Part shown: positions 4,580-32,375 of the stretch, piece after piece
Layout: the number at the start of each line of letters is the position of its first letter
Numbering within the stretch: position 1 is the stretch's first letter
From: Eledone cirrhosa
Lineage: Eukaryota
Length of the DNA stretch: 64,000 nucleotides
Assembly (NCBI GenBank): GCA_964016885.1
Contig: OZ024764.1
Span: 15,438,001-15,502,000 of the forward strand
Reading direction: 5' to 3'
Made by a program: the position numbers and the translations under genes
Notes under the pieces: model-generated
What the model was told of the DNA's origin: nothing
Seen by the model: the letters and a program-made list of their open reading frames with translations, nothing else
Database searches by the model: none

Positions 4580-4745
4580 ATCATCATCATCATCGTTTAA
4601 CATCCATCTTCCACGCTAGCATGGGTTAGACGGTTTCATTCCATTTGATGCGGGAATGGTCGGGAGACCGTGTCTCACTCACAGGGAAGTGTCTCTGGCA
4701 GGTTTTTTTTACAGTTGGATGCCCTTCCTAACACCAACCACATTT
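4580..4745 (-). mobile_element. SINE 3' portion with RTE-type tail, running into the 49-bp array
   Basis: (cat)n-cgtttaac...ccacgctagcatgggttagacgg tail plus 'ggatgcccttcctaacaccaacc', shared with copies at 15200, 17160 and 29260. Confidence 0.75.
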
Positions 4746-6032
4746 ACAGTGAGGACTGGGAGTCTTTTTACCGTGTCTCCTACATGACCACCTTACAGTG
4801 TGGACTGGGAGTCTTTTTACCGTGTCTCCTACACGACCACTTTACAGTATGGACTGGGAGTCTTTTTACCATGTCTCCTACACAACCACATTACAGTGTA
4901 GACTGGGAGTCTTTTTACCGTGTCTCCTACACAACCACATTACAGTGAGGACTGGGAGTCTTTTTACCGTGTCTCCTTCACGACCACTTTACAGTGTGGA
5001 CTGGGAGTCTTTTTACCATGTCTCCTACGCAACCACATTACAGTGTGGACTGGGAGTCTTTTTACCATGTCTCCTTCACGACCACTTTACAGTGTAGACT
5101 GGGAGTCTTTTTACTGTGTCTCCTACACGACCACTTTACAGTGAGGACTGGGAGTCTTTTTACCATGTCTCCTACATGACCACATTACAGTGTAGACTGT
5201 GAGTCTTTTTACCGTGTCTCCTACACAACCACATTACAGTGTGGACTGGGAGTCTTTTTACCGTGTCTCCTTCACGACCACTTTACAGTGTGGACTGGGA
5301 GTCTTTTTACCATGTCTCCTACGCAACCACATTACAGTGTGGACTGGGAGTCTTTTTACCATGTCTCCTTCACGACCACTTTACAGTGTAGACTGGGAGT
5401 CTTTTTACTGTGTCTCCTACACGACCACTTTACAGTGAGGACTGGGAGTCTTTTTACCATGTCTCCTACATGACCACATTACAGTGTAGACTGTGAGTCT
5501 TTTTACCGTGTCTCCTACACAACCACATTACAGTGAGGACTGGGAGTCTTTTTACCGTGTCTCCTTCACGACCACTTTACAGTGTGGACTGGGAGTCTTT
5601 TTACCATGTCTCCTACGCAACCACATTACAGTGTGGACTGGGAGTCTTTTTACCATGTCTCCTTCACGACCACTTTACAGTGTAGACTGGGAGTCTTTTT
5701 ACTGTGTCTCCTACACGACCACTTTACAGTGTGGACTGGGAGTCTTTTTACCGTGTCTCCTACACAACCACTTTACAGTGTAGACTGGGAGTCTTTTTAC
5801 CGTGTCTCCTACACAACCACATTACAGTGTGGACTGGGAGTCTTTTTACCGTGTCTCCTACACAACCACTTTACAGTGTGGACTGGGAGTCTTTTTACCG
5901 TGTCTCCTACACAACCACTTTACAGTGTGGACTGGGAGTCTTTTTACCGTGTCTCCTACACAACCACTTTACAGTGTGGACTGGGAGTCTTTTTACCGTG
6001 TCTCCTACACAACCACTTTACAGTGTGGACTG
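4742..6032. repeat. 49-bp minisatellite (~26 copies) with a 294-bp (6-mer) higher-order repeat
   Basis: Unit actgggagtctttttaccgtgtctcctacacaaccactttacagtgtgg; matching ORF starts at 4994/5288/5582 and 5199/5493 are 294 bp apart. Confidence 0.97.
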
Positions 6033-7182
6033 TTGTGTCATCGACACAGTGGACAGAAAAGGGAGAGGGAGGGTGGGGTGGGGTGTACATTGAGTTAAGT
6101 GGTGCCTACTGACTGTAGGTTTGTATGCAATGGCAGTACAAACCTACATATATGTGTGTGTGTGGTGTTTAGGTGTATACATCTCTATTTACCATTGTAT
6201 ATGTACATCTATATATTGTAAAAAGAAAATTGAAAGAATTTTATAAAGTTTAACATTTTTTATTGACAACATATGTAAATGACTTTCATAGTTTTTCTTA
6301 TTCCACTTTTCTTACAGATGTCCAGCCTTCTTTGTCATATACTGTGTTTGCTGTAACCACTGAGAGAATATTGGTGAAGTTTCTGTTAATAAAGAATGTT
6401 TACATATAAATTGTGTTCAGTTATTTTCACCAAAAAAGATGGGCTTTTGGCCTCATAAATGAAGTGTTCGTTAATAAAAATTGTTTACATATAATATACG
6501 AACCGTGTTGAAGTATCTATAAGAGACTTATCTTGGTGCATAAACTTCCACCACTCACAGAGTCCTATCTTTCAGCCTAAGCTTCAAGATGGGATTCAGT
6601 CCATAGCATATTCTGACAGCCAGGGGTTTGTAACTATCCCCACTCTTGCCTGTAAAGTCATTTCTGGCACCACACCTGAATATGGAGTTTCCATATTCAG
6701 GTGTGGTGCCATGCAATGGGCATTCTATGAACATCTATAAATCAATGGGTAGCAGTAGTTCCAGCTGCACACATCTAAAGACAGGTGTAGTGGTTCTGAG
6801 AACAATGTAGCTTTACAGGTGATCAATGTAAATTGACAATGGAAAGGTGCTCCCGCTTGAGTTAGAAGAGAACTATTGACCTTCAGGAGAAGCAGTGACC
6901 CCTGATTGTATTCAGCAACCCAAACACATATGAAGTACACCAAATCCAATGCTCCTAGGGGCAGCCCTGGTTCTTCTTATTTGCAAGTGTAAACTTGACC
7001 AGATTAGATTAGATAAGATATATATATGCGTATATAATGGTGTATATATAATGGTGTATTGCTCAATAATTACTGATGCAAACACCAATAATTGAAGTTC
7101 ATTGTACTGAACAAAAATTATACACTCGGTTACACATGTGTATGTGTGTGTATGTTTCTATGTTTATGTGTGTGTATATATA

Positions 7183-7240
<58 letters not shown>

Positions 7241-7339
7241 TAAACATACAAACATGCATATACACACACATACACATATATATATAGTAAAATAAAATAA
7301 CAAGGAGGATTGGTTACTCCTCCATTACATTTATTGGTT

Positions 7340-7426
7340 GGTGACACGTGTTTCACCACTGATCAGCTCAAGGTTTGATCTGTATCGAGCTGACCCAACT
7401 CTGTAATCCGCGGCTCATCAGACCCC
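7340..7426 (-). ncRNA. Type-I hammerhead ribozyme motif
   Basis: Minus strand reads GGGGU-CUGAUGA-GCCGCGGAUU...GAUCAGUGGU-GAAA-CACGUG-UC-ACC: canonical core, stem II, short palindromic stem III, GUC site, stem I GGU/ACC. Confidence 0.75.
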
Positions 7427-7451
7427 TTATACTGGTAATGGAAAAAAAAAG

Positions 7452-7537
7452 GGGGTCTGAGGAGCCGCAGATTACTGAGTCAGGTCAGATTGAACATATC
7501 GAACCTTGAGCTGATCAGTGGTGAAACACGTGTCACC
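7452..7537 (+). ncRNA. Type-I hammerhead ribozyme motif
   Basis: ggggt CTGAGGA(7457-7463) gccgc...gtggt GAAA(7523-7526) cacgt GTC(7532-7534) acc; AATAAA at 7542. Confidence 0.7.
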
Positions 7538-7702
7538 AACCAATAAATGTAATGGAGGAGTAACCAATCGTCCTTGTTACCCTTTCACTATAATACACTC
7601 TGTCTAGCTCTACACCTCGACACTGAAGTGAACCTAAACATCGAGTGCTCACCCGGGTGAACCTACAGTAACTCCAAGTTACACTCCCTGGAGATATATA
7701 TA

Positions 7703-8036
7703 GGCACATGGCTTAGTGGTTAAAGCATTGGCCTTGCAATCGAAAGGTTGTGAGTTCAATTCTCAGACCGGGTGATGTGTTGTTTCCTTGAGCAAGACAC
7801 TTTATTTCACATTGCTCCAGTTTACTCAGCTGTAGAAATGAGATGATAGGGACTGGGGTCCCTATCATTCCACTGCAAAGTGGTCGTGGAGGTGCCACGG
7901 CAAAAAAGCACCCAGCACTCACTGTAAATGAGGTTGGTGTTAGGAAGGGCATCCAGCTGTAGAGATCAAGCCAGAACCAGTTCCCGTCCCACCCTTGCAA
8001 GCAGGGAAAAGCGGACGTAAAATGATGATGATGATA
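7703..8036 (+). mobile_element. Full-length tRNA-derived SINE (CORE-like central domain, RTE-derived tail)
   Basis: A-box 'tggcttagtggt', B-box 'gagttcaattc', CORE-like 'ccttgagcaagacacttta', tail 'cccgtcccacccttgcaagcagggaaaagcggacgtaaaa(tga)n' matching local RTE 3' ends. Confidence 0.85.
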
Positions 8037-8230
8037 TAAATATATTTATTTACACACATATATATATTTGTGTATATGTGTATGTATGCATGTGTGTGTA
8101 TATATATTATATGTGTGTATGTGTGTGTATATGTATGTGCGTATGTATATATATATGTTTGTATGTGTATATATATATGTGTGTGTATGTGTGCGTATAT
8201 GTATGTTTTTGTATGTATATGTGTATATAT

Positions 8231-8790
8231 AGAATTTATTCTCTAGCTCCTCTACTGATTCTGCTATAAAAACCAGATTGTCAGTATAGAGAAGTTCCCA
8301 TGGGCAGATAGTCTTAAACTCCTCTGTTATGGCTTGGAGGACTATAATGAACAAGAGCGGGCTGAGGACCGAACTCTGATGGACTCCTCCTTGTATCTGG
8401 AATTCCTCACTAAACTCCATTCCTACCCTCACTTTACAGACAGCACCTCTGTACAAAGCTTGCACTGTCCTCACAAGCCATTCCTCAACACCTAGCTTCC
8501 TTAGGGATCACCAGATGACAGATTGGGGTACACTATCAAAGGCTTTCTCTAGGTCAACAAAAGCTAAGTATAATGGCTTATTCTTCTCTAAGAACCTCTC
8601 TTGTAGTTGTCTCACTAAGAAGAGGGCATCGGTTGTACTTTTCCCAGGCACAAAACCAAACTGCATCTCATCTAGTTTGACTCTTTCTCCAATTAGTTGC
8701 TCTAATATCCTTTCTGCCACTTTCATAACCTGATCTATCAGTTTTATACCCCTATAATTGATCCTCTCCAGAGCATCCCCTTTACCTTTG
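8231..8790 (-). mobile_element. RTE-clade LINE reverse-transcriptase fragment (degenerate)
   Basis: QFGFVPGKSTTDALFLVRQLQE...YLAFVDLEKAFDSV and GVHQSSVLSPLLF...LLYTDNLV (YADD decayed); stop between the two ORFs. Confidence 0.92.
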
Positions 8791-9064
8791 TATATGTGTG
8801 TTTATGTGAATAGATATATTTTTATGTGTATGTGTATGTATGTCTATATATATATATATGTGTATGTGTGTGTATATGTATGTTTTTGTATGTATGTGTA
8901 TGTATGTGTTAAATATGTGTGTATGTGTGTATATGTATGTTTTTGTATATATATATATATATATATTTTGTATATAAATATATATATATATATATATATC
9001 ATACAATTATAATTAGATCAATGTCCAATTTTTATACAGATACCAGCTCAGCTACTGTACTGAA

Positions 9065-9260
9065 ACCACACCATTACCACCACCTCCACCACTGCCACCA
9101 CCACCACCACCACCTCCACCATACCAACACCACCACCACCACCACCACCACTGCCAACACCACCACCACCATCACACCATTACCACCTCCACCACTGCCA
9201 CCACCACCACACCACCACCACCACCACCACCACCACCACCACCACCACCACCACCACTAC
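9065..9260. repeat. (CAC)n-rich microsatellite
   Basis: Direct reading. Confidence 0.95.
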
Positions 9261-9364
9261 ACTATAAAACTTGAGAAAGTTTGTTTTGATGCATAAATTG
9301 TGGACAGAGTCGATGTGAATGGAAATTACTGGACAGCAGTGGATATTACTGGTACAGGTGGAGA

Positions 9365-9572: not shown

Positions 9573-9599
9573 AATATTAACATCAACAGAATTACTCAC

Positions 9600-9830: not shown

Positions 9831-9945
9831 CATTGCTCTCATGTATGTATATAGCATGTGTATATATATCATATATATATAGTAATAATAATAAATGTGA
9901 AGACTAAAATTCAAAGAGGGCTCCATAAGGATAAATATATAATAG

Positions 9946-15197: not shown

Positions 15198-15536
15198 TCA
15201 TCATCATCATCATTTTACGTCCGCTTTTTCCCTGCTTGCAAGGGTGGGACGGGAACTGATTCTGGCTTGATTTCTACAGCTGGATGCCCTTCCTAACACC
15301 AACCTCATTTACAGTGAGTGCTGGCTGCTTTTTTTCCGTGGCACCTCCACGACCACTTTACAGTGGAATGATAGGGACCCCAGTCCCTATCATCTCATTT
15401 CTACAGCTGAGTAAACTGGAGCAATGTGAAATAAAGTGTCTTGCTCAAGGAGACAACACATCACCCGGTCTGAGAATTGAACTCACAACCTTTCGATTGC
15501 AAGGCCAATGCTCTAACCACTAAGCCATGTGCCTCC
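15198..15536 (-). mobile_element. Full-length tRNA-derived SINE, near-identical to 7703-8036
   Basis: Reverse complement of the 7703-8036 copy, including the atgatagggac...cctatcat palindrome. Confidence 0.88.
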
Positions 15537-15814: not shown

Positions 15815-16810
15815 CTCTTTCTCCTTCTTCACCCACTTATTCCTGTGAAGGGTCATGGGGAGCAGAGTCCTCAAACACTCCTTCCAGTGGGTCCTGTCAG
15901 AAACAACTGTCCCCAACTGATCTGGCTGAATCCCCAAGCTCATGGATGTTATCCAACCATCTTGCTCAGTGTTTACCCCTGTGTCTCCTGCCAGTTGGTT
16001 TTGCCATTAAAATCTGTCCAGAGATTCTCTCCTCAGACATTCTAACCACATGTCTGTAGTATCAGAGCTGTGATCTCTCAATCCAGAGATTCTTTCCTCA
16101 GACATTCTAACCACATGTCTGTAGTATCAGAGCTGTGATCTCTCAATCCAGAGATTCTTTCCTCAGACATTCTAACCACATGTCTGTAGTATCAGAGCTG
16201 TGATCTCTCAATCCAGAGATTCTTTCCTCAGACATTCTAACCACATGTCTGTAGTATCAGAGCTGTGATCTCTCAATTCAGAGATTCTCTACTGAGACAT
16301 TCTAACCACATGTCTGTAGTATCAGAGCTGTGATCTCTCAATTCAGAGATTCTTTCCTGAGACATTCTAACCACATGTCTGTAGTGTCAGAGCTGTGATC
16401 TCTCAATTCAGAGATTCTTTCCTGAGACATTCTAACCACATGTCTGTAGTATCAGAGCTGTGATCTCTCAATTCAGAGATTCTTTCCTCAGACATTCTAA
16501 CCACATGTCTGTAGTATCAGAGCTGTGATCTCTCAATCCAGAGATTCTTTCCTCAGACATTCTAACCACATGTCTGTAGTATCAGAGCTGTGATCTCTCA
16601 ATTCAGAGATTCTTTCCTCAGACATTCTAACCACATGTCTGTAGTATCAGAGCTGTGATCTCTCAATTCAGAGATTCTTTCCTCAGACATTCTAACCACA
16701 TGTCTGTAGTATCAGAGCTGTGATCTCTCAATCCAGAGATTCTTTCCTCAGACATTCTAACCACATGTCTGTAGTATCAGAGCTGGGATCTCTAAAAGCT
16801 AACCTTCTTG
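15815..16810 (-). mobile_element. RTE LINE 3' fragment with an internal 65-bp segment amplified ~12x (16021-16790)
   Basis: Minus ORF LGIQPDQLGTVVSDRTHWKECL resembles an RTE C-terminus; the repeat unit (minus strand) encodes an IERSQL.YYRHVVRMSEER-like segment, matching the RTE 'RSQLRWFGHV.RM' motif. Confidence 0.75.
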
Positions 16811-17159: not shown

Positions 17160-17435
17160 TCATCATCATCATCATCATCACCGTTTTACGTCCGTTCTTC
17201 CATGCTAGCATGGGTTAGACGGGTTGTCCTGTTGTGGGCAGTGTCTGGTCGGCTGACCATGCCTTGCTCATACAGGAACTGATTTGGCTTGGTTTCTACA
17301 GCTGGATGCCCTTCCTAACACCAACCTCATTTACAGTGAGTGCTGGGTGCTTTTTCGTGGCGCCTACACGTCCACTTTACAGTGTGGGCTGGGTGCTTTT
17401 TTGCCGTGGCACCTCCACGACCACCTTGCGGTGGG
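17160..17435 (-). mobile_element. SINE 3' portion carrying two tandem copies of the ~48-bp module
   Basis: RTE-type tail, 'ggatgcccttcctaacaccaacc', then two units of tttacagtg.g.gctgggtgcttttt..gtggc.cct.cacg.ccac. Confidence 0.8.
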
Positions 17436-17717
17436 GGGTGTGGGGGCATATTGTCTATATGCTTAGTGGTTATTTGTATTCATACATCACCAACCTTACA
17501 GCGCTGGTGACTGACCAAGCACAACTAAATTATGCAACAGCGATAAAATAATACTATCATGTCTTGTTACATGCACATCTATACACATTTCCTAAACCTT
17601 GGATTTTTCACAAAATTGAAAGCTCATAGTCCAGGTTCTTTCCATAAACATTTTCTAAACTTTAGAATATGTTTTCTCCAAAACTGAAAGCTAACCACCT
17701 CCGCTTTCCTTTTACAG

Positions 17718-18574: not shown

Positions 18575-18872
18575 TACTGGAGGTAAGAGGGATAAGTTGT
18601 AGTGCGCGGGAGAGAAGACTGCGTTGGTATGGACATGTGATGCACATGCAGGATGACCGCTGGGTAAAGAAGTGCCAAGAAATGCCAGTAGAAGGAAGAC
18701 ACAGTAGAGGAAGACCATGAAAAACATGGGCGGAGGTCGTGAGAGCTGACCTCAGATCACTGAAGCTCACGGAGGAGATGACGAAGGACCGTGACGAGTG
18801 GAGAGATGCTGCGCTGAATAAGACCCGTCCCACCCTTGCAAACAGGGAAAAGCAGACGTAAAATGATGATAT
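18575..18872 (+). mobile_element. RTE LINE 3' end
   Basis: ERRLRWYGHVMHMQDDRWVKKC...GRHSRGRP*KTW...DRDEWR, then tail cccacccttgcaa.cagggaaaagcagacgtaaaatgatgat. Confidence 0.88.
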
Positions 18873-18996: not shown

Positions 18997-21900
18997 ATGG
19001 TAGTGTTGGTGTCATGGTATAATACACCCAGTACACTCTGTAAAGTGGTAGTGTTGGTGTCATGATAAAATACACCCAGTACACTCTGTAAAGTGGTAGT
19101 GTTGGTGTCATGGTATAATACACCCAGTACACTCTGTAAAGTGGTTGGTGTTGGTGTCATGATAAAATACACCCAGTACACTCTGTAAAGTGGTAGTGTT
19201 GGTGTCATGGTATAATACACCCAGTACACTCTGTAAAGTGGTAGTGTTGGTGTCATGATATAATACACCCAGTACACTCTGTAAAGTGGTAGTGTTGGTG
19301 TCATGATATAATACACCCAGTACACTCTGTAAAGTGGTAGTGTTGGTGTCATGATATAATACACCCAGTACACTCTGTAAAGTGGTAGTGTTGGTGTCAT
19401 GATAAAATACACCCAGTACACTCTGTAAAGTGGTAGTGTTGGTGTCATGATATAATACACCCAGTACACTCTGTAAAGTGGTAGTGTTGGTGTCATGATA
19501 AAATACACCCAGTACACTCTGTAAAGTGGTAGTGTTGGTGTCATGATAAAATACACCCAGTACACTCTGTAAAGTGGTAGTGTTGGTGTCATGATATAAT
19601 ACACCCAGTACACTCTGTAAAGTGGTAGTGTTGGTGTCATGGTATAATACACCCAGTACACTCTGTATAGTGGTAGTGTTGGTGTCATGGTATAATACAC
19701 CCAGTACACTCTGTAAAGTGGTAGTGTTGGTGTCATGATAAAATACACCCAGTACACTCTGTAAAGTGGTAGTGTTGGTGTCATGGTATAATACACCCAG
19801 TACACTCTGTATAGTGGTAGTGTTGGTGTCATGGTATAATACACCCAGTACACTCTGTAAAGTGGTAGTGTTGGTGTCATGATAAAATACACCCAGTACA
19901 CTCTGTAAAGTGGTAGTGTTGGTGTCATGATATAATACACCCAGTACACTCTGTAAAGTGGTAGTGTTGGTGTCATGATAAAATACACCCAGTACACTCT
20001 GTAAAGTGGTAGTGTTGGTGTCATGGTATAATACACCCAGTACACTCTGTATAGTGGTAGTGTTGGTGTCATGATATAATACACCCAGTACACTCTGTAA
20101 AGTGGTAGTGTTGGTGTCATGATAAAATACACCCAGTACACTCTGTAAAGTGGTAGTGTTGGTGTCATGATATAATACACCCAGTACACTCTGTAAAGTG
20201 GTAGTGTTGGTGTCATGATAAAATACACCCAGTACACTCTGTAAAGTGGTAGTGTTGGTGTCATGATAAAATACACCCAGTACACTCTGTAAAGTGGTAG
20301 TGTTGGTGTCATGATATAATACACCCAGTACACTCTGTAAAGTGGTAGTGTTGGTGTCATGGTATAATACACCCAGTACACTCTGTATAGTGGTAGTGTT
20401 GGTGTCATGGTATAATACACCCAGTACACTCTGTAAAGTGGTAGTGTTGGTGTCATGATAAAATACACCCAGTACACTCTGTAAAGTGGTAGTGTTGGTG
20501 TCATGGTATAATACACCCAGTACACTCTGTATAGTGGTAGTGTTGGTGTCATGGTATAATACACCCAGTACACTCTGTAAAGTGGTAGTGTTGGTGTCAT
20601 GGTATAATACACCCAGTACACTCTGTAAAGTGGTAGTGTTGGTGTCATGGTATAATACACCCAGTACACTCTGTAAAGTGGTAGTGTTGGTGTCATGATA
20701 AAATACACCCAGTACACTCTGTAAAGTGGTAGTGTTGGTGTCATGGTATAATACACCCAGTACACTCTGTAAAGTGGTAGTGTTGGTGTCATGATATAAT
20801 ACACCCAGTACACTCTGTAAAGTGGTAGTGTTGGTGTCATGGTATAATACACCCAGTACACTCTGTAAAGTGGTAGTGTTGGTGTCATGATATAATACAC
20901 CCAGTACACTCTGTAAAGTGGTAGTGTTGGTGTCATGATATAATACACCCAGTACACTCTGTAAAGTGGTAGTGTTGGTGTCATGATATAATACACCCAG
21001 TACACTCTGTAAAGTGGTAGTGCTGGTGTCATGATATAATACACCTAGTACACTCTGTAAAGTGGTAGTGTTGGTGTCATGATAAAATACACCCAGTAGA
21101 CTCTGTAAAGTGGTAGTGTTGGTGTCATGGTATAATACACCCAGTACACTCTGTAAAGTGGTAGTGTTGGTGTCATGGTATAATACACCCAGTACACTCT
21201 GTAAAGTAGTAGTGTTGGTGTCATGATAAAATACACCCAGTAGACTCTGTAAAGTGGTAGTGTTGGTGTCATGGTATAATACACCCAGTACACTCTGTAA
21301 AGTAGTAGTGTTGGTGTCATGATAAAATACACCCAGTAGACTCTGTAAAGTAGTAGTGTTGGTGTCATGATATAATACACCCAGTACACTCTGTAAAGTG
21401 GTAGTGTTGGTGTCATGATATAATACACCCAGTACACTCTGTAAAGTGGTAGTGTTGGTGTCATGATATAATACACCCAGTACACTCTGTAAAGTGGTAG
21501 TGTTGGTGTCATGATATAATACACCCAGTACACTCTGTAAAGTGGTAGTGTTGGTGTCATGGTATAATACACCCAGTACACTCTGTAAAGTGGTAGTGTT
21601 GGTGTCATGATATAATACACCCAGTAGACTCTGTAAAGTGGTAGTGTTGGTGTCATGGTATAATACACCCAGTACACTCTGTAAAGTGGTAGTGTTGGTG
21701 TCATGATATAATACACCCAGTACACTCTGTAAAGTGGTAGTGTTGGTGTCATGATATAATACACCCAGTACACTCTGTAAAGTGGTAGTGTTGGTGTCAT
21801 GATATAATACACCCAGTACACTCTGTAAAGTGGTAGTGTTGGTGTCATGATATAATACACCCAGTACACTCTGTAAAGTGGTAGTGTTGGTGTCATGATA

Positions 21901-24900
21901 TAATACACCCAGTAGACTCTGTAAAGTGGTAGTGTTGGTGTCATGGTATAATACACCCAGTACACTCTGTAAAGTGGTAGTGTTGGTGTCATGATATAAT
22001 ACACCCAGTACACTCTGTAAAGTGGTAGTGTTGGTGTCATGATATAATACACCCAGTACACTCTGTAAAGTGGTAGTGTTGGTGTCATGATAAAATACAC
22101 CCAGTACACTCTGTAAAGTGGTAGTGTTGGTGTCATGATAAAATACACCCAGTACACTCTGTAAAGTGGTAGTGTTGGTGCCATGATAAAATACACCCAG
22201 TACACTCTGTAAAGTGGTAGTGTTGGTGCCATGATAAAATACACCCAGTACACTCTGTAAAGTGGAAGTGTTGGTGTCATGATATAATACACCCAGTACA
22301 CTCTGTAAAGTGGTAGTGTTGGTGTCATGATATAATACACCCAGTAGACTCTGTAAAGTGGTAGTGTTGGTGTCATGATAAAATACACCCAGTACACTCT
22401 GTAAAGTGGTAGTGTTGGTGTCATGGTATAATACACCCAGTACACTCTGTAAAGTGGTAGTGTTGGTGTCATGATAAAATACACCCAGTACACTCTGTAA
22501 AGTGGTAGTGTTGGTGTCATGATATAATACACCCAGTACACTCTGTAAAGTGGTAGTGTTGGTGTCATGATATAATACACCCAGTAGACTCTGTAAAGTG
22601 GTAGTGTTGGTGTCATGATATAATACACCCAGTAGACTCTGTAAAGTGGTAGTGTTGGTGTCATGATAAAATACACCCAGTACACTCTGTAAAGTGGTAG
22701 TGTTGGTGTCATGATATAATACACCCAGTACACTCTGTAAAGTGGTAGTGTTGGTGTCATGATATAATACACCCAGTAGACTCTGTAAAGTGGTAGTGTT
22801 GGTGCCATGATGTAATACACCCAGTACACTCTGTAAAGTGGTAGTGCTGGTGTCATGATAAAATACACCCAGTACACTCTGTAAAGTGGTAGTGTTGGTG
22901 TCATGATATAATACACCCAGTAGACTCTGTAAAGTGGTAGTGTTGGTGTCATGATATAATACACCCAGTAGACTCTGTAAAGTGGTAGTGTTGGTGTCAT
23001 GATATAATACACCCAGTACACTCTGTAAAGTGGTAGTGTTGGTGTCATGATATAATACACCCAGTACACTCTGTAAAGTGGTAGTGTTGGTGTCATGGTA
23101 TAATACACCCAGTAGACTCTGTAAAGTGGTAGTGTTGGTGTCATGATATAATACACCCAGTAGACTCTGTAAAGTGGTAGTGTTGGTGTCATGGTATAAT
23201 ACACCCAGTAGACTCTGTAAAGGGGTAGTGTTGGTGTCATGATATAATACACCCAGTACACTCTGTAAAGTGGTAGTGTTGGTGTCATGATATAATACAC
23301 CCAGTACACTCTGTAAAGTGGTAGTGTTGGTGTCATGGTATAATACACCCAGTAGACTCTGTAAAGTGGTAGTGTTGGTGTCATGATATAATACACCCAG
23401 TAGACTCTGTAAAGTGGTAGTGTTGGTGTCATGGTATAATACACCCAGTAGACTCTGTAAAGGGGTAGTGTTGGTGTCATGATATAATACACCCAGTACA
23501 CTCTGTAAAGTGGTAGTGTTGGTGTCATGATATAATACACCCAGTACACTCTGTAAAGTGGTAGTGTTGGTGTCATGGTATAATACACCCAGTAGACTCT
23601 GTAAAGTGGTAGTGTTGGTGTCATGATATAATACACCCAGTAGACTCTGTAAAGTGGTAGTGTTGGTGTCATGGTATAATACACCCAGTAGACTCTGTAA
23701 AGGGGTAGTGTTGGTGTCATGATATAATACACCCAGTACACTCTGTAAAGTGGTAGTGTTGGTGTCATGATATAATACACCCAGTACACTCTGTAAAGTG
23801 GTAGTGTTGGTGTCATGATATAATACACCCAGTACACTCTGTAAAGTGGTAGTGTTGGTGTCATGATATAATACACCCAGTACACTCTGTAAAGTGGTAG
23901 TGTTGGTGTCATGGTATAATACACCCAGTAGACTCTGTAAAGTGGTAGTGTTGGTGTCATGATATAATACACCCAGTACACTCTGTAAAGTGGTAGTGTT
24001 GGTGTCATGGTATAATACACCCAGTAGACTCTGTAAAGGGGTAGTGTTGGTGTCATGATATAATACACCCAGTACACTCTGTAAAGTGGTAGTGTTGGTG
24101 TCATGATATAATACACCCAGTACACTCTGTAAAGTGGTAGTGTTGGTGTCATGGTATAATACACCCAGTACACTCTGTATAGTGGTAGTGTTGGTGTCAT
24201 GGTATAATACACCCAGTACACTCTGTAAAGTGGTAGTGTTGGTGTCATGATAAAATACACCCAGTACACTCTGTAAAGTGGTAGTGTTGGTGTCATGGTA
24301 TAATACACCCAGTACACTCTGTATAGTGGTAGTGTTGGTGTCATGGTATAATACACCCAGTACACTCTGTAAAGTGGTAGTGTTGGTGTCATGGTATAAT
24401 ACACCCAGTACACTCTGTAAAGTGGTAGTGTTGGTGTCATGGTATAATACACCCAGTACACTCTGTAAAGTGGTAGTGTTGGTGTCATGATAAAATACAC
24501 CCAGTACACTCTGTAAAGTGGTAGTGTTGGTGTCATGGTATAATACACCCAGTACACTCTGTAAAGTGGTAGTGTTGGTGTCATGATATAATACACCCAG
24601 TACACTCTGTAAAGTGGTAGTGTTGGTGTCATGGTATAATACACCCAGTACACTCTGTAAAGTGGTAGTGTTGGTGTCATGATATAATACACCCAGTACA
24701 CTCTGTAAAGTGGTAGTGTTGGTGTCATGATATAATACACCCAGTACACTCTGTAAAGTGGTAGTGTTGGTGTCATGATATAATACACCCAGTACACTCT
24801 GTAAAGTGGTAGTGCTGGTGTCATGATATAATACACCTAGTACACTCTGTAAAGTGGTAGTGTTGGTGTCATGATAAAATACACCCAGTAGACTCTGTAA

Positions 24901-27900
24901 AGTGGTAGTGTTGGTGTCATGGTATAATACACCCAGTACACTCTGTAAAGTGGTAGTGTTGGTGTCATGGTATAATACACCCAGTACACTCTGTAAAGTA
25001 GTAGTGTTGGTGTCATGATAAAATACACCCAGTAGACTCTGTAAAGTGGTAGTGTTGGTGTCATGGTATAATACACCCAGTACACTCTGTAAAGTAGTAG
25101 TGTTGGTGTCATGATAAAATACACCCAGTAGACTCTGTAAAGTAGTAGTGTTGGTGTCATGATATAATACACCCAGTACACTCTGTAAAGTGGTAGTGTT
25201 GGTGTCATGATATAATACACCCAGTACACTCTGTAAAGTGGTAGTGTTGGTGTCATGATATAATACACCCAGTACACTCTGTAAAGTGGTAGTGTTGGTG
25301 TCATGATATAATACACCCAGTACACTCTGTAAAGTGGTAGTGTTGGTGTCATGGTATAATACACCCAGTACACTCTGTAAAGTGGTAGTGTTGGTGTCAT
25401 GATATAATACACCCAGTAGACTCTGTAAAGTGGTAGTGTTGGTGTCATGGTATAATACACCCAGTACACTCTGTAAAGTGGTAGTGTTGGTGTCATGATA
25501 TAATACACCCAGTACACTCTGTAAAGTGGTAGTGTTGGTGTCATGATATAATACACCCAGTACACTCTGTAAAGTGGTAGTGTTGGTGTCATGATATAAT
25601 ACACCCAGTACACTCTGTAAAGTGGTAGTGTTGGTGTCATGATATAATACACCCAGTACACTCTGTAAAGTGGTAGTGTTGGTGTCATGATATAATACAC
25701 CCAGTAGACTCTGTAAAGTGGTAGTGTTGGTGTCATGGTATAATACACCCAGTACACTCTGTAAAGTGGTAGTGTTGGTGTCATGATATAATACACCCAG
25801 TACACTCTGTAAAGTGGTAGTGTTGGTGTCATGATATAATACACCCAGTACACTCTGTAAAGTGGTAGTGTTGGTGTCATGATAAAATACACCCAGTACA
25901 CTCTGTAAAGTGGTAGTGTTGGTGTCATGATAAAATACACCCAGTACACTCTGTAAAGTGGTAGTGTTGGTGCCATGATAAAATACACCCAGTACACTCT
26001 GTAAAGTGGTAGTGTTGGTGCCATGATAAAATACACCCAGTACACTCTGTAAAGTGGAAGTGTTGGTGTCATGATATAATACACCCAGTACACTCTGTAA
26101 AGTGGTAGTGTTGGTGTCATGATATAATACACCCAGTAGACTCTGTAAAGTGGTAGTGTTGGTGTCATGATAAAATACACCCAGTACACTCTGTAAAGTG
26201 GTAGTGTTGGTGTCATGGTATAATACACCCAGTACACTCTGTAAAGTGGTAGTGTTGGTGTCATGATAAAATACACCCAGTACACTCTGTAAAGTGGTAG
26301 TGTTGGTGTCATGATATAATACACCCAGTACACTCTGTAAAGTGGTAGTGTTGGTGTCATGATATAATACACCCAGTAGACTCTGTAAAGTGGTAGTGTT
26401 GGTGTCATGATATAATACACCCAGTAGACTCTGTAAAGTGGTAGTGTTGGTGTCATGATAAAATACACCCAGTACACTCTGTAAAGTGGTAGTGTTGGTG
26501 TCATGATATAATACACCCAGTACACTCTGTAAAGTGGTAGTGTTGGTGTCATGATATAATACACCCAGTAGACTCTGTAAAGTGGTAGTGTTGGTGCCAT
26601 GATGTAATACACCCAGTACACTCTGTAAAGTGGTAGTGCTGGTGTCATGATAAAATACACCCAGTACACTCTGTAAAGTGGTAGTGTTGGTGTCATGATA
26701 TAATACACCCAGTAGACTCTGTAAAGTGGTAGTGTTGGTGTCATGATATAATACACCCAGTAGACTCTGTAAAGTGGTAGTGTTGGTGTCATGATATAAT
26801 ACACCCAGTACACTCTGTAAAGTGGTAGTGTTGGTGTCATGATATAATACACCCAGTACACTCTGTAAAGTGGTAGTGTTGGTGTCATGGTATAATACAC
26901 CCAGTAGACTCTGTAAAGTGGTAGTGTTGGTGTCATGATATAATACACCCAGTAGACTCTGTAAAGTGGTAGTGTTGGTGTCATGGTATAATACACCCAG
27001 TAGACTCTGTAAAGGGGTAGTGTTGGTGTCATGATATAATACACCCAGTACACTCTGTAAAGTGGTAGTGTTGGTGTCATGATATAATACACCCAGTACA
27101 CTCTGTAAAGTGGTAGTGTTGGTGTCATGGTATAATACACCCAGTAGACTCTGTAAAGTGGTAGTGTTGGTGTCATGATATAATACACCCAGTAGACTCT
27201 GTAAAGTGGTAGTGTTGGTGTCATGGTATAATACACCCAGTAGACTCTGTAAAGGGGTAGTGTTGGTGTCATGATATAATACACCCAGTACACTCTGTAA
27301 AGTGGTAGTGTTGGTGTCATGATATAATACACCCAGTACACTCTGTAAAGTGGTAGTGTTGGTGTCATGGTATAATACACCCAGTAGACTCTGTAAAGTG
27401 GTAGTGTTGGTGTCATGATATAATACACCCAGTAGACTCTGTAAAGTGGTAGTGTTGGTGTCATGGTATAATACACCCAGTAGACTCTGTAAAGGGGTAG
27501 TGTTGGTGTCATGATATAATACACCCAGTACACTCTGTAAAGTGGTAGTGTTGGTGTCATGATATAATACACCCAGTACACTCTGTAAAGTGGTAGTGTT
27601 GGTGTCATGATATAATACACCCAGTACACTCTGTAAAGTGGTAGTGTTGGTGTCATGATATAATACACCCAGTACACTCTGTAAAGTGGTAGTGTTGGTG
27701 TCATGGTATAATACACCCAGTAGACTCTGTAAAGTGGTAGTGTTGGTGTCATGATATAATACACCCAGTACACTCTGTAAAGTGGTAGTGTTGGTGTCAT
27801 GGTATAATACACCCAGTAGACTCTGTAAAGGGGTAGTGTTGGTGTCATGATATAATACACCCAGTACACTCTGTAAAGTGGTAGTGTTGGTGTCATGATA

Positions 27901-27935
27901 TAATACACCCAGTACACTCTGTAAAGTGGTAGTGT
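18997..27935. repeat. 48-bp satellite array (~186 copies, ~8.9 kb) filling most of intron 4
   Basis: Unit gtagtgttggtgtcatgatataatacacccagtacactctgtaaagtg; nested higher-order periods of 240, 720 and 3792 bp. Confidence 0.99.
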
Positions 27936-27980
27936 TATTATTATTGATGTTGTTGTTGTTGTTGTTGTTGTCTGTTTCAG

Positions 27981-28045
27981 GACATGGAATGGCCGACTCC
28001 TTGGCCGTATTTATTCGCCTGAAACCGGATAAACATCTCACTTGA
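27981..28045 (+). CDS. Secreted protein, terminal coding exon 5
   Basis: Acceptor tctgtttcag ending 27980; phase-1 join gives G-HGMADSLAVFIRLKPDKHLT-stop (TGA 28043-28045). Exon sum 325+179+155+164+65 = 888 nt = 295 aa + stop. Confidence 0.85.
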
Positions 28046-28057
28046 TCCTCGTCATCA

Positions 28058-28690
28058 CTGCTGCTGCTGTTGTTGTTGTTGTTGGTGGTGCTGGTGTTGT
28101 TGTTGTTGTTGTTGGTGGTGCTGGTGTTGTTGTTGTTGTTGTTGGTGGTGTTGTTGTTGGTGTTGTTGTTGTTGGTGGTGCTGGTGTTGTTGTTGGTGCA
28201 GCAGTTGTTGTTGTTGTTGTTGGTGGTGGTGCTGTTGTTGTTGTTGTTGTTGTTGTTGGTGGTGCTGGTGTTGTTGTTGTTGTTGGTGGTGGTGCTGGTG
28301 TTGTTGTTGTTGTTGTTGGTGGTGCTGGTGTTGTTGTTGTTGTTGTTGGTGGTGCTGGTGTTGTTGTTGTTGTTGGTGGTGGTGCTGGTGTTGTTGTTGT
28401 TGTTGGTGCAGCAGTTGTTGTTGTTGTTGTTGGTGGTGGTGCTGTTGTTGTTGTTGTTGTTGGTGCAGCAGTTGTTGTTGTTGTTGGTGGTGGTGCAGTT
28501 GTTGTTTTTGTTGATGGTGGTGGTGGTGCTGGTGTTGTTGTTGTTGTTGTTGGTGGTGGTGCTGGTGTTGTTGTTGTTGTTGTTGGTGGTGGTGCTGGTG
28601 CAGTTGTTGTTGTTGTTGGTGGTGGTGCAGTTGTTGTTTTTGTTGATGGTGCAGTTGTTGTTGTTGATGCTATTGATGGTGCAGCTGTTG
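28058..28690. repeat. (GTT/GGT/GCT)n compound trinucleotide tract just after the stop codon
   Basis: Direct reading. Confidence 0.95.
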
Positions 28691-28886
28691 ATTTCTCTCA
28701 AATGAAACAGTTCTAGTCCTGTAAAAGCATTTTCTATATTAAATATTTATACTCTGCTTTGTATTGAGTACTTACTTACTGTGGTTACCCCCGATTGACC
28801 CCGGGATAAACTTATATATATATATTTATGTATTATAAGAACAGATTAAAGTTTAAGCAAAGAATCACTGCTTTCGCATTTATTAT

Positions 28887-28972
<86 letters not shown>

Positions 28973-28982
28973 GTGTGTGTGT

Positions 28983-29232
28983 GCAGGAGAGGAGGATGCG
29001 TTGGTATGGACATGTGATGCGTATGAAGGATGACAGCTGCATAAAAAGGTGCAGAGCACTCAAAGTTTATGGAAACCGCGGAGTGGGGAGACTCAAAAAG
29101 ACCTGGGGTGAGGTGATAAAAGCCGGCCTTGCCCAATTGCACCTCTCAACAGCGATGACACAGGACCGTGACCTCTGGCGTCACGCAGTAATACAGAAGA
29201 CCCGACCCCCCACGGGTACAAGCCGAAGCTGA
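28983..29232 (+). mobile_element. RTE LINE 3' fragment
   Basis: QERRMRWYGHVMRMKDDSCIKRC...GNRGVGRLKKTW...QDRDLWR. Confidence 0.88.
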
Positions 29233-29257
29233 AGCATATAGAGAATATGCTGCCACC

Positions 29258-29730
29258 CCCTTCCACTGCAAAGTGGTCGTGGAGGTGCCACGGCAAAAAA
29301 GCACCCAGCACTCACTGTAAATGAGGTTGGTGTTAGGAAGGGCATCCAGCTGAAGAAATCAAGCCAGAATCAGTTCCCGTATGAGCAAGACAAGGTCACC
29401 TGACCTAACATCGCCCACAACAGGGCAACCTGTCTAACCCATGCTAGCATGGAAGAATGGATGTAAAACGGTGATGATGATCATCATCACCATCATCATT
29501 TATGTCTGCTTTTCCCTGCTTGCAAGGGTGGGACGGGTCCTATTCAGCACAGCATCTCTCCACTTGTCACGGTCCTTCGTCATTTCCTCAGTGAGTTTCA
29601 GCCTATCCCTCTTATTCAGTTTCTCTCTCAACACATTCATGCTTGGTCGTTCATGCACATTGACATTGCACACCCAACAGAGCATGCAGCCTCATTTCTC
29701 TCCAACACATCCAACGGAGCATGCATGATG
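29258..29730. mobile_element. SINE 3' portion (+, 29258-29490) tail-to-tail with an RTE 3' fragment (-, 29490-29730)
   Basis: Single 48-bp module and ggttggtgttaggaagggcatccagctg; minus ORF ...LTEEMTKDRDKWRDAVLNRTRPT. Confidence 0.8.
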
Positions 29731-29744
29731 ACGTAAAATGATAA

Positions 29745-30200
29745 TAATAATAATGAAATTATTGTGTACAGTGCTCAGGTGCACTACAACTCATCAAAGG
29801 TGCATGTATAGTACATAGAATAATGTACAAATGTCAGGAAAATGAACAGTGTATGAGTCATGATATAATAATAATAATAATAATGAAATATTGTGTACAG
29901 TGCCCAGGTGCACTACAACTCATCAAAAAGTGCATGTATAGTACATAGGGTAATGTATAAACATCAGTAAAATGAACAGTGCACGAGTCATGATACACAC
30001 ACGTGTGCATGTGTATGGAAGGGGTACATCAGGTGTAGTTTTGGCGTATTTCGGGAAGCATGAGTGTCTTAAAGGATGCAGTGTCTTAAAGGATGCAGTG
30101 TCTCAACAGCTAACAACTGACGCAGGCAGTTTGTTCCATGCTTCAGCAACTCTGAGCGTGAAAAAATGTCTACGAAAGTCATGGGAGCTGTGCTGTTTAT
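29745..30200 (-). mobile_element. CR1-type LINE 3' end with duplicated 3'UTR
   Basis: Minus strand encodes KQHSSHDFRRHFFTLRVAEAWNKLPASVVSC, the CR1 C-terminal FF..RV...WN.LP motif; the ~135-bp UTR block is repeated at 29750 and 29880. Confidence 0.8.
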
Positions 30201-30204
30201 ATAT

Positions 30205-30620
30205 TTGTAATAAGGTTGCTTGGATGCATCGATAGACAGTATGCTGGTTGAGCACTCTATGTCCCTACAGAGCAGAGTATGATAATATGGAAAACGAAGA
30301 ATCAGTGATGCATTGGAACACAATTTATTACGTATTACAATTGTTTCTCCAGCAAACAGCTTGAGGTACGATCTGTTTGTGGATCGAACCTGACTCTGGA
30401 TTCGCAAGTTCCTCAGATACGTCTAGTGATTTTGAAGCAAATCCTCTTTCTGCTGGACTCCAACCCTTCAAATTTCTATCATCTGCCATCATCCTGCTTG
30501 CGCAGCACTTCGATTCGTTGATGTATGTCCACCACTCACACCACTTCCCCATTTTGTTTGTTGACAAGATTGTTCTTCCAGAACGAGGTTCGTCTACAAG
30601 ATAATCTTGCTACTCTTTAT
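30205..30620 (-). mobile_element. Possible degenerate Tc1/mariner transposase fragment
   Basis: Minus strand near 30600 reads LVDEPRSGRT, similar to the mariner N-terminal DEPRSGRP motif; the rest is not recognisable. Confidence 0.3.
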
Positions 30621-30809
30621 AACATTGTGCAACTTAAAACAAACAAAGAAGAAGAATCGAAACAAAACAATTTTCACGTTTAGATTATATTTGCTGATAA
30701 ATGCTTCATTAAGAATTCAGAAGACTGAAGCAGTGGAGCATCATGAATTGATCAAATAGTCTTCACAGTTCTGTGTAAAAGGAAGGAAAGGGTTGGTGAA
30801 AAAGCTACA

Positions 30810-31370
30810 CTGTGTTTGTGTGAATGTATGTGTGTGTTTGTGTGAATGTATGTGTGTGTTTGTGTGAATGTATGCGTGTGTTTGTTTGTGAATGTATGTG
30901 TGTGTTTGCGTGAATGTATGTGTGTGTTTGTGTGAATGTATGTGTGTGTTTGTGAATGTATATGTGTGTTTGTTTGTGAATGTATGTGTGTGTGTTTGTG
31001 TGAATATTTGTGAGTGTTTGTGTGAATGTATGTGTGTGTTTGTGTAAATGTATGTGTGTGTTTGTTTGTGAATGTATGTGTGTGTGTTTGTGTGAATGTA
31101 TGTGTGTGTTTGTGTGAATGTATGTGTGTGTTTGTTTGTGAATGTGTGTGTGTTTGTTTGTGAATGTATGTGTGTGTGTGTTTGTGTGAATGCATGTATG
31201 TTCGTGTTTGTGTGAATATATGTGTGTGTTTGTGTGAATCTATTTGTGAGTGTTTGTGTGTGTGTCTGTGTTTGCACCTTTATACTTATATACTCAAATA
31301 TATAAATGAATGCACACACACACACATATACACACACATATACACATACACACACATATACACACACACA
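30810..31370. repeat. (GT)-rich compound microsatellite
   Basis: tgtgtgaatgtatgtgtgtgtt repeats. Confidence 0.93.
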
Positions 31371-31593
31371 AAAAAAACCTTTAGTAAAGGAAATTGATGA
31401 AAGTATAGTTCAATAATTGATTGTCTTTCTTTCTGTAAAGGTTCATTCTACCATGACAGATCAAAATAATGAATACACAATACATATGAGCAGAGTAAAT
31501 CACCATCATCGCTGTTTAATGCCTATCTTCCACGTTAGCATGGGTTAGACGGGTTGTTGAGGGCAGAGGTAGACAGTAGAGAGAGGAGGAAAC

Positions 31594-32375
31594 TCCCAGT
31601 CCACACTGTAAAGTGGTCATGTAGGTGTCACAACAAAAAACACACAGTCCACACTGTAAAGTGGTCATGTAGGTGTCACAACAAAAAACACACAGTCCAC
31701 ACTGTAAAGTGGTCATGTAGGTGTCACAACAAAAAGCACCCAGTCCACACTGTAAAGTGGTCATGTAGGTGTCACAACAAAAAACACACAGTCCACACTG
31801 TAAAGTGGTCATGTAGGTGTCACAACAAAAAGCACCCAGTCCACACTGTAAAGTGGTCATGTAGGTGTCACAACAAAAAGCACCCAGGCCACACTGTAAA
31901 GTGGTCATGTAGGTGTCACAACAAAAAACACACAGTCCACACTGTAAAGTGGTCATGTAGGTGTCACAACAAAAAGCACCCAGTCCACACTGTAAAGTGG
32001 TCATGTAGGTGTCACAACAAAAAACACACAGTCCACACTGTAAAGTGGTCATGTAGGTGTCACAACAAAAAGCACCCAGTCCACACTGTAAAGTGGTCAT
32101 GTAGGTGTCACAACAAAAAACACCCAGTCCACACTGTAAAGTGGTCATGTAGGTGTCACAACAAAAACACCCAGTCCACACTGTAAAGTGGTCATGTAGG
32201 AGTCACGACAAAAAGCACCCAGTCCACACTGTAAAGTGGTCATGTAGGTGTCACAACAAAAAACACCCAGTCCACACTGTAAAGTGGTCATGTAGGTGTC
32301 ACAACAAAAACACCCAGTCCACACTGTAAAGTGGTCATGTAGGTGTCATGACAAAAAGTTCCAAGCCCACTCTGT
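31594..32375. repeat. 48-bp minisatellite (~16 copies) continuing into the SINE body
   Basis: Unit cccagtccacactgtaaagtggtcatgtaggtgtcacaacaaaaagca, followed by 'ctgtaaatggagttggcgttaggaagggcatc' at ~32373. Confidence 0.97.

What the first reader, a model, noticed from the sequence alone, without database searches (positions are those of the whole stretch)
4742..32375. One ~48-bp SINE-internal module repeatedly seeds satellites: 1, 2, ~16, ~26 and ~186 copies in one window
Seen: intact SINEs carry one unit 'cactg.aaagtggtcgtggaggtgccacggcaaaaaagcacccagcact' bounded by a direct repeat cactg(c/t)aaa (7871-7930, 29264-29322, ~15310-15365). A copy at 17330-17430 has two units. The arrays at 4742-6032 (49 bp) and 31594-32375 (48 bp) are still joined to the SINE body (ggttggtgttaggaagggcatc). 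The 8.9-kb array at 18997-27935 keeps ctgtaaagtggt...ggtgtca...cacccagt.cac. Each array is homogenised around its own variants, so they expanded independently. Inference: the SINE carries an expansion-prone cassette and acts as a mobile source of minisatellites that can inflate introns. TE-derived satellites are known in general; I cannot say whether this family has been described.
Basis: partly seen in the sequence, partly recalled or inferred. Interest (0 to 1): 0.78.

Follow-up and report, generated by a model that had tools for sequence, protein, structure and literature searches.

The report
LINE tail cassette seeds satellites genome-wide
A 48-base unit carried in the non-coding tail of a jumping gene (a LINE, and a SINE that borrowed it) occurs in anything from zero copies to an estimated 14,500 tandem copies, and likely grows after insertion by mispairing of two short repeats that bracket it; this is a new, unusually complete example of a known route from transposon to satellite DNA.

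Summary
The arrays are real and homologous (26.6, 186 and 16.5 units), but the unit is not SINE-internal in origin. It lies in the 3'UTR of an endonuclease-RT-PHD LINE, 31 bp after the stop codon; a young tRNA-SINE borrowed one unit. Only two of the listed copies are SINEs, the two-unit copy is a LINE subfamily trait, and the two flanked arrays sit in LINE remnants. In 99 systematic 10-kb samples, 15 of 96 unit clusters are arrays, and 14 of 74 complex minisatellites contain the unit. Of 30 consecutive copies of array 1's subfamily, 23 have one unit, 3 none and 1 four, so copy number changes after insertion, at the bracketing direct repeat. One unit type forms a ~698-kb block on the same chromosome. 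The three window arrays differ because they come from three unit types that recur genome-wide, not through private drift. The 8.9-kb array has no host flanks, holds an exact 3,792-bp duplication, and shares variants with unlinked arrays, possibly by ectopic exchange. No intron context was found. Verdict: a new variant of known transposon-derived satellites (Ogre 3'UTR satellites, squamate SINE satellites).

The parts
4570..4741 (-). 3' body and (ATG)n tail of the LINE copy that hosts array 1
4742..6032 (-). Array 1 (type a1): 49-bp unit x ~26, expanded inside a LINE 3'UTR of subfamily 'R3'
6033..6150 (-). LINE 3'UTR leader of array 1's host: degenerate unit and C-rich tract (G-quadruplex-type motif on the + strand at ~6061-6083); 5'-truncated
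7703..8040 (+). Young tRNA-derived SINE: tRNA head 7709-7766, core, hairpin 7843-7868, one unit 7871-7931 plus body from the LINE 3'UTR, terminus shared with a second LINE
   Evidence: Rfam tRNA 29.3 bits; top genome hits 97-99%; 20,887 exact hairpin/unit junctions
15200..15534 (-). Second copy of the same SINE, one unit
   Evidence: 97.6% to 7703-8040
17161..17463 (-). 5'-truncated LINE 3'UTR of a two-unit subfamily (two diverged units, no tRNA head)
   Evidence: the same second unit is in raw reads (table 5c)
18720..18872 (+). 3' end of a second LINE family without the unit; its terminus matches the SINE's terminus
18998..27936 (+). Array 2 (type a2): 48-bp unit x186, three transitions from the unit of an old LINE-type family ('O'); no host flanks; 20270-24144 repeated exactly at 24062-27936
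28985..29480 (+). 3' end of the source LINE: ORF end (stop 29230-29232), leader, one unit 29264-29324, body, (ATG)n tail
31499..31557 (-). LINE terminus in opposite orientation to array 3; likely the other half of one 5'-inverted insertion
   Evidence: reference positions 1041-1100 on -, 871-1004 on +
31590..32378 (+). Array 3 (type a3): 48-bp unit x16.5; same type as the ~698-kb block at G000:C25:18426713-19124329
32379..32444 (+). LINE body following array 3

Best explanation
The 48-49-bp unit lies in the 3'UTR of an endonuclease-RT-PHD LINE (likely RTE clade) and in a tRNA-SINE that likely borrowed it; retrotransposition likely scatters short cassettes (one to three units) as seeds, and after insertion a copy likely loses or gains units by slippage or unequal exchange between the short direct repeats that bracket the unit, and can grow into arrays of tens to thousands of units. 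Steps. (1) Shown: the unit starts 31 bp after the ORF stop, and LINE subfamilies carry fixed cassettes of 1, 2 or 3 diverged units. (2) Shown by sequence, direction inferred: the SINE is a chimera of tRNA head, core, this 3'UTR segment and the end of a second LINE. (3) Shown: copies of one subfamily differ in unit number (0, 1, 4, 26), and new junctions fall inside the bracketing repeat. (4) Inferred: the first duplication is microhomology-driven; later growth is by block duplication (unequal crossing-over or conversion). (5) Inferred: long arrays favour small chromosomes and chromosome ends, probably because recombination is higher there. (6) Less certain (~0.55): a2-type arrays, including the 8.9-kb one, also exchange or copy tracts between unlinked loci. 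No host function is proposed.
For: LINE identity: Exo_endo_phos E 3.6e-7, RVT_1 E 1e-32, PHD E 1.7e-6 in upstream copies; best PDB matches are L1 ORF2 and R2; all 20 fetched loci show ORF end, leader, unit, body, tail. Subfamily cassettes. Array 1's subfamily, first 30 of 267 exact matches (all on C1): 23 one unit, 3 none, 1 with 0.4, 1 with 1.5, 1 with four, 1 truncated. Unit and tail diverge alike in these singles (89.5% vs 88.8% pairwise). 22 of 24 a1-type arrays with the 3' end in view keep the LINE body. SINE copies with 5-7 units keep head and tail, with junctions inside the direct repeat (L138, L140, L220). Raw reads of two other samples show the 49-bp go-back joint with a 3-letter overlap in 1,246 and 1,230 reads. 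Systematic sample of 99 x 10 kb: 96 clusters, 15 arrays; 14 of 74 complex minisatellites contain the unit, against 1 wholly from ~33 kb of other parts of the same elements. Several unselected arrays have private monomers (L138, L266, L286, L288). Position: 35 of 4,049 exact SINE-type tandem junctions lie on C1-C4, 54% of the genome; 9 of 11 multi-hit a2 loci on C1-C7 lie within 6 Mb of an end.
Against: 7 of 15 unselected arrays, most a2-type arrays (5 of 23 pass the body test, a sixth has a decayed tail) and both ends of the 698-kb block have no recognisable host flank, so in-place growth is not shown for them. In my sample the share of clusters that are arrays did not differ between small and large chromosomes (13 of 76 vs 2 of 20, Fisher p=0.73), and the 4,049 junction count may be dominated by a few large arrays that I could not see. 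The genome makes many other repeat-derived minisatellites (60 of 74, including a 72-bp family at ~9 places), so part of the effect is host background. No target-site duplications could be fixed. The monomer tree has 1 of 24 branches well supported. RTE-clade membership was not tested by phylogeny.
Confidence: 0.8

Rival explanations
1. Arrays form a connected network. Dispersed units act as landing pads, and a break in one is repaired by copying a multi-unit tract from an array elsewhere (ectopic conversion or reinsertion of circles), so many arrays, the 8.9-kb one in particular, are copies rather than independent growths.
For: 24 a2 arrays at unlinked loci: monomers 92.3% alike between arrays vs 94.3% within, while 18 unselected old units average 75.6% to a2 and the few attached flanks are decayed and unlike each other (59% over 50 nt). 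One A/T transversion is polymorphic within 16 of 22 arrays. 13 of 23 3' ends fall near the natural end of the old unit (p=0.003, window chosen after seeing the data). One exact 33-bp a2 junction occurs 1,735 times, at about 30 loci on C1-C8 alone.
Against: The a2 set was picked by similarity to the window array (top 40 of 136 candidates). Unselected old-type arrays have private monomers (0.72-0.78 to type). An old two-unit lineage already carries a2-like states (L115, L236, L247), and mid-arm single hits may be an unseen younger subfamily. For a1, between-array identity (90.8%) matches plain subfamily descent (89.5%), and most of its shared variants are CpG or junction sites.
Confidence: 0.35
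2. One reading: the tRNA-SINE is the source and each array arose independently from a SINE copy.
For: The SINE is abundant (20,887 exact junctions) and some copies have 2-7 units; 2 of 15 unselected arrays are SINE-hosted.
Against: None of the three window arrays has the SINE head or terminus; their monomers are 0.71-0.80 to the SINE unit, whereas the a1 type is identical to a LINE unit (L123) and the a2 type is 45 of 48 to the old-family consensus. The SINE unit is identical to the unit of one LINE subfamily.
Confidence: 0.05
3. Satellite first: an old 48-bp satellite was captured into the LINE 3'UTR and carried around, and large arrays are ancestral.
For: A ~698-kb block exists without LINE flanks. 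Young LINE cassettes begin with the tail of a previous unit, which looks like the scar of an earlier tandem.
Against: The oldest family carries the unit inside a longer ~120-bp 3'UTR repeat, with its own upstream sequence, mostly without the 48-bp tandem junction. The big block is homogeneous (93.5-95% across 0.7 Mb), so it is young or recently turned over. A second organism's run holds the LINE end with units (X5).
Confidence: 0.1
4. The long arrays are inflated by assembly error.
For: The 8.9-kb array holds a mismatch-free 3,875-bp repeat at lag 3,792.
Against: Tandem junctions are in raw reads of other samples. Arrays show diverse variant strings and flanks, and other arrays in the window have shorter exact blocks too (231-878 bp). 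At most this lowers 186 to ~107 units.
Confidence: 0.1

Closest known systems
Satellites from tandem repeats in the 3'UTR of Ogre LTR retrotransposons (pea PisTR-A; nine Lathyrus satellites; PMC7004042 passages, PMC9659126 passages)
   Same: A short tandem cassette downstream of the coding region is dispersed with the element and occasionally expands into long arrays in favoured chromosome regions.
   Different: The carrier here is a non-LTR LINE in an animal. The cassette is 1-3 units and is passed on to a SINE. Arrays favour small chromosomes and ends; in Lathyrus expansion was mainly at primary constrictions.
SINE-derived satellites (sSat1-3) of squamates (PMC10702118, parts 1, 3 and 4 of 5 read)
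   Same: Arrays of a retroposon segment, up to ~1000 units, with a longer terminal unit running into the element, homogeneous within and between loci, tending to subtelomeres.
   Different: sSat units are 70-290 nt from SINE heads or bodies. Here the unit is 48-49 bp, comes from the LINE-derived part, is bracketed by a direct repeat, and varies in number between LINE subfamilies.
RTE retrotransposons as generators of microsatellite families in Lepidoptera (PMC2887409, abstract)
   Same: LINE 3' ends seed dispersed tandem repeats; truncated 3' copies are the usual carriers.
   Different: There the repeat is the terminal simple-sequence tail of a very short 3'UTR; here it is an internal 48-bp minisatellite that reaches satellite size.
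TE-derived human minisatellites (PMC3389668, abstract); SVA VNTR (recalled, not read)
   Same: About a fifth of minisatellites are TE-derived in human (23%); SVA carries an internal variable repeat.
   Different: Here one cassette alone is in 14 of 74 sampled complex minisatellites, and one type reached ~0.7 Mb.

Membership tests
Non-LTR retrotransposon (APE-type LINE) | Endonuclease domain upstream of a reverse transcriptase domain | tested here: met
   Exo_endo_phos then RVT_1 in overlapping copies; PDB best hits L1 ORF2 and R2
Non-LTR retrotransposon (APE-type LINE) | Copies share the 3' end, are variably 5'-truncated and end in a short-repeat tail | tested here: met
   20 loci with common 3' end, shared homology starting 1-1450 nt into the locus, (ATG)n tail
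RTE clade | RT phylogeny groups with RTE elements | not tested
   No reference RT set at hand; the label rests on domain order, tail and a recalled C-terminal motif
RTE clade | Single ORF with endonuclease and RT | tested here: inconclusive
   Domains found in broken copies; longest open piece 665 aa; 5' end not reached
RTE clade | Very short 3'UTR of simple repeats (as in lepidopteran RTEs, PMC2887409 abstract) | tested here: not met
   The 3'UTR is ~240 nt or longer with the cassette; the second LINE at 18720-18872 does have a short one. An octopus RTE with ~600-nt UTRs is reported (PMC9115989 passages), so this feature is not universal
tRNA-derived SINE (7703-8040, 15200-15534) | tRNA-related head | tested here: met
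   Rfam RF00005 29.3 bits vs gathering 29 at 7709-7766; ARAGORN finds no tRNA gene
tRNA-derived SINE (7703-8040, 15200-15534) | 3' part shared with a LINE; high copy number with fixed ends | tested here: met
   Unit and body match one LINE, terminus matches a second; 30 loci with common ends; 20,887 exact junctions
tRNA-derived SINE (7703-8040, 15200-15534) | Target-site duplications | tested here: inconclusive
   Insertions sit in (TA)n tracts; matches are low-complexity
SINE-derived satellite (sSat) as in squamates | Monomer comes from a SINE segment and the array ends in SINE sequence | tested here: not met
   Not met for the three window arrays (LINE or no host); met for L138, L140, L220
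Retrotransposon 3'UTR-derived satellite (Ogre type) | The same unit exists as a short cassette in the 3'UTR and as long arrays | tested here: met
   0-4 units in dispersed copies, 5-186 in arrays, ~14,500 in one block
Retrotransposon 3'UTR-derived satellite (Ogre type) | Relatives have the cassette but not the satellite (direction of origin) | tested here: inconclusive
   Run X5 of another organism holds the LINE end with units; its arrays could not be sized
Centromeric satellite (698-kb block) | One block per chromosome; CENP-A binding | tested here: inconclusive
   Strand excess of one 33-mer (7,689 vs 1,473) is mostly explained by this single block, which argues against one per chromosome for this variant; chromatin not testable

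The most novel reading that the evidence does not exclude
The LINE and its satellites form a loop. The 3'UTR cassette seeds on the order of ten thousand arrays, up to a 0.7-Mb block; arrays copy tracts into old dispersed units on other chromosomes, using them as landing pads; and array ends feed back new multi-unit cassettes into new LINE and SINE subfamilies.
Probability: 0.25. Interest if true: 0.72.

Novelty: new variant of a known kind. Interest (0 to 1): 0.48.

Why it matters
How satellites are born and spread is usually inferred from end states. Here one defined seed was dropped at many thousands of sites by datable retroposon subfamilies, and every stage is present in one genome: deleted, single, few, tens, hundreds, and about 14,500 units. 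Each LINE-hosted array has its own neutral clock attached (the tail). That makes birth rate, growth rate, dependence on chromosome position, and in-place growth versus ectopic copying directly measurable. In practice, the unit is the commonest single source of complex minisatellites in the sample, a risk for assembly and marker design. The general route is already in print, so the interest is as a test system, not as a new principle.

Tried and rejected
Host function or intron context: 144 open frames from outside the repeats were scanned against Pfam (144 of 219 candidates plus additions). Above Pfam's cut-off were only an LRR frame (44537-45724, ends in its own stop) and an RT fragment (8508-8801), so there is no evidence that the arrays are intronic; small exons would be missed. 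Structured RNA: Rfam on 7500-8200 gave only the tRNA head above gathering score. Hairpin-driven expansion: trimers of all four unit types fold no better than shuffles as DNA (z -0.33 to +0.53). G-quadruplex trigger: a G4-type motif lies just upstream of 8 fetched arrays including array 1, but SINE- and old-family-hosted arrays lack it; not adopted. Arrays retrotransposed ready-made: rejected for array 1's subfamily (23 of 30 single-unit); no target-site duplications were found at array ends. Segmental duplication as the cause of a2 similarity: shared 600-bp flank hits were other repeats. Monomer tree: too few columns; types group only weakly. Expression: no RNA holder listed. Earlier scan notes: none. 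Literature: 10 searches found no description of this unit or of cephalopod satellites of this kind. Subscription journals, Repbase and Dfam were not searchable, and supplements (e.g. the repeat library of PMC13282606) were not opened, so the family may be catalogued there. An early estimate of 124 kb of non-unit element DNA was inflated by a (TA)n tract in the reference and was replaced by 33 kb.


Full report
1. Observation. The window is G000:C25:15438001-15502000 in a 3.0-Gb assembly. TRF confirms the three arrays: 4726-6032 (49 bp x26.6), 18998-27936 (48 bp x186.2) and 31590-32378 (48 bp x16.5). All align to the unit in the element at 7703-8040, with consensus identities of 0.76, 0.71 and 0.80. 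A monomer HMM had no hit of 14 bits or more on reversed sequence. So the homology is real.

2. The carrier is a LINE. Only 7703-8040 and 15200-15534 have a tRNA head (Rfam 29.3 bits). At 29264 the unit follows an ORF whose stop is at 29230-29232. All twenty loci fetched with this stretch show ORF end, short leader, unit, body and (ATG)n tail, with variable 5' truncation. Walking upstream gave Exo_endo_phos, RVT_1 and PHD, and the best solved relatives are L1 ORF2 and R2. RTE clade is likely but was not tested by phylogeny. The SINE unit is identical to the unit of this LINE subfamily, and the SINE terminus matches a second LINE whose end lies at 18720-18872. The SINE is thus a chimera that took one unit with its LINE-derived part; the direction is inferred from the usual LINE-to-SINE sharing (PMC10702118, part 1 read). 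It has at least 20,887 copies.

3. Cassettes differ between subfamilies. Among 21 unselected copies that keep the ORF end, the 3'UTR holds one, two or three diverged units in fixed order. The two-unit copy at 17161-17463 is a truncated member of a two-unit subfamily (L123, L136, L008), not a local duplication. An older family ('O', 18 unselected units, mean 75.6% to the 8.9-kb type) carries the unit inside a ~120-bp 3'UTR repeat; its consensus unit differs from the a2 type at three transitions.

4. Growth after insertion. Array 1 has the LINE leader on one side and the LINE tail on the other. Its subfamily has 267 exact matches to a diagnostic 30-mer; of the first 30 (all on C1), 23 have one unit, 3 none, 1 has 0.4, 1 has 1.5, 1 has four and 1 is truncated. 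In the single-unit copies, unit and tail are equally diverged (89.5% and 88.8%). Of 24 a1-type arrays with the 3' end in view, 22 keep the LINE body. SINE copies with 5-7 units keep both ends, and their junctions join the right-hand copy of the bracketing repeat to the left-hand one (L138, L140, L220). Raw reads from two other samples show the same 49-bp go-back joint with a three-letter overlap (1,246 and 1,230 reads). Trimers fold no better than shuffles. Microhomology-driven slippage or unequal exchange is therefore the likely first step, followed by block duplication (exact internal blocks of 231-3,875 bp).

5. Scale. I sampled 99 stretches of 10 kb at fixed positions (100 asked, one did not exist). 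They hold 96 unit clusters: 59 single, 22 with two or three units, 15 with four or more; of these 15, 6 have a LINE tail, 2 a SINE head and 7 no recognised host. Of 74 complex minisatellites (period 30-200, four or more copies), 14 contain the unit and 1 comes wholly from the ~33 kb of other LINE/SINE sequence. Thirteen arrays in 580 kb of C8-C27 extrapolate to about 17,600 (95% range 9,400-30,100). Against a simple position effect, the share of clusters that are arrays was 13 of 76 on small and 2 of 20 on large chromosomes (p=0.73). For it, both large-chromosome arrays lay within 8 Mb of an end, 35 of 4,049 SINE-type junctions lie on C1-C4, and 9 of 11 multi-hit a2 loci on C1-C7 are within 6 Mb of an end. 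The a3 type forms a block at C25:18,426,713-19,124,329, about 698 kb; every probe was array, with 93.5-95% monomer identity across it and no LINE flanks. It explains most of the strand excess of a diagnostic 33-mer (7,689 vs 1,473), so it is probably a single block for this variant.

6. Independent or connected? The window arrays differ (76-82%) because they descend from three unit types that recur at many loci; an unselected array (L146) has the same consensus as array 3. For a1, descent from a LINE subfamily suffices (90.8% between arrays vs 89.5% between single units). Several unselected arrays have private monomers, which fits independent growth. The a2 type is harder. Twenty-four arrays are 92.3% alike between and 94.3% within; only 5 of 23 pass the test for a host body; the attached flanks are old and unlike; and one A/T site is polymorphic within 16 of 22 arrays. 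This suggests ectopic copying, but the set was selected by similarity (top 40 of 136 candidates), and an unseen younger subfamily could explain part of it; the single mid-arm hits that would test this were not examined. I put some exchange among a2 arrays at about 0.55, and exchange as the main source of arrays at about 0.35.

7. Caveats on the window. 79 of the 186 units are an exact duplicate, recent or an assembly error. Array 3 has LINE positions 871-1004 on + and 1041-1100 on -, the geometry of a 5'-inverted insertion (interpretation from recalled knowledge). No exon was found near the arrays, so intron inflation is unsupported.

8. Comparison. The route is known. Ogre 3'UTR repeats expand into satellites (PMC7004042 and PMC9659126, passages seen). 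Squamate SINEs give satellites with terminal SINE sequence and a subtelomeric bias (PMC10702118, parts 1, 3 and 4 of 5). RTE 3' ends seed microsatellites (PMC2887409, abstract), and 23% of human minisatellites are TE-derived (PMC3389668, abstract). An octopus repeat annotation (PMC13282606, part 1 and term search) has no passage on satellites; PMC4758252 and PMC9115989 were seen as passages only. Ten searches found no account of this unit; repeat databases, subscription papers and supplements were not seen. What differs here is a LINE carrier with subfamily-specific cassettes, transfer to a SINE, and the full range from zero to about 14,500 units.

9. Verdict. Observation partly confirmed; interpretation partly supported. 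New variant of a known kind; interest 0.48; confidence in the LINE-cassette, grow-after-insertion model 0.8.

Noticed in passing
G000:C25:18426713-19124329 (L232, L233, L304-L313, L324-L333, L346-L349): About 698-kb, single-strand block of the a3 unit (~14,500 units, 2.4% of the chromosome). All 19 internal probes and five 10-kb pieces were array; the rest was not read. The left end starts abruptly; the right end finishes in a short fold-back.
   Followed up: partly
window 20270-27936: Exact 3,792-bp tandem duplication inside the 8.9-kb array, plus smaller higher-order repeats; very recent event or assembly artefact.
   Followed up: partly
window 31499-32444; L199, L218, L231, L035, L104: Head-to-head or inverted pieces next to arrays; the window case has the geometry expected of a 5'-inverted (twin-primed) LINE insertion (mechanism name recalled).
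   Followed up: partly
L224 (G000:C25:9843672-9844703) vs window 4522-6153: Shares the 5' end and ~55 bp of 3' flank with array 1's host, with 21 vs 26 units: apparently a duplicate of the same insertion.
   Followed up: partly
L352, L358, L359: The LINE ORF has a PHD finger right after the RT domain.
   Followed up: no
window 7843-7868 and 15368-15393: Perfect 11-bp-stem hairpin at the join between SINE core and LINE-derived part.
   Followed up: no
window 50122-51186; L131, L143, L148, L149, L162, L267, L292, L296: A second dispersed minisatellite family (60/72-bp unit) at ~9 sampled places, probably inside another mobile element.
   Followed up: no
window 33826-34440, 62946-63328, 16019-16793, 43225-43839; L134, L146, L165, L168, L302: Other repeat-derived arrays (77-103 bp, 65 bp, 105 bp including the SINE hairpin, 112 bp of unit plus body): this genome turns many element parts into arrays.
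   Followed up: no
window 44537-45724 (-): Uninterrupted 395-aa frame with N-terminal leucine-rich repeats, a charged middle and a hydrophobic C-terminal stretch (LRRC59-like by recall).
   Followed up: partly
window 59433-62375 (-): Long open frame without Pfam match whose end includes an unrelated in-frame 48-bp tandem repeat (59494-59907).
   Followed up: no
window 7302-7568: Inverted-repeat element (MITE-like) seen in the sequence just left of the SINE.
   Followed up: no
L111, L160, L272, L266, L268, L135: Several sampled stretches of large and small chromosomes are wholly or mostly other satellites (50-143-bp units).
   Followed up: no
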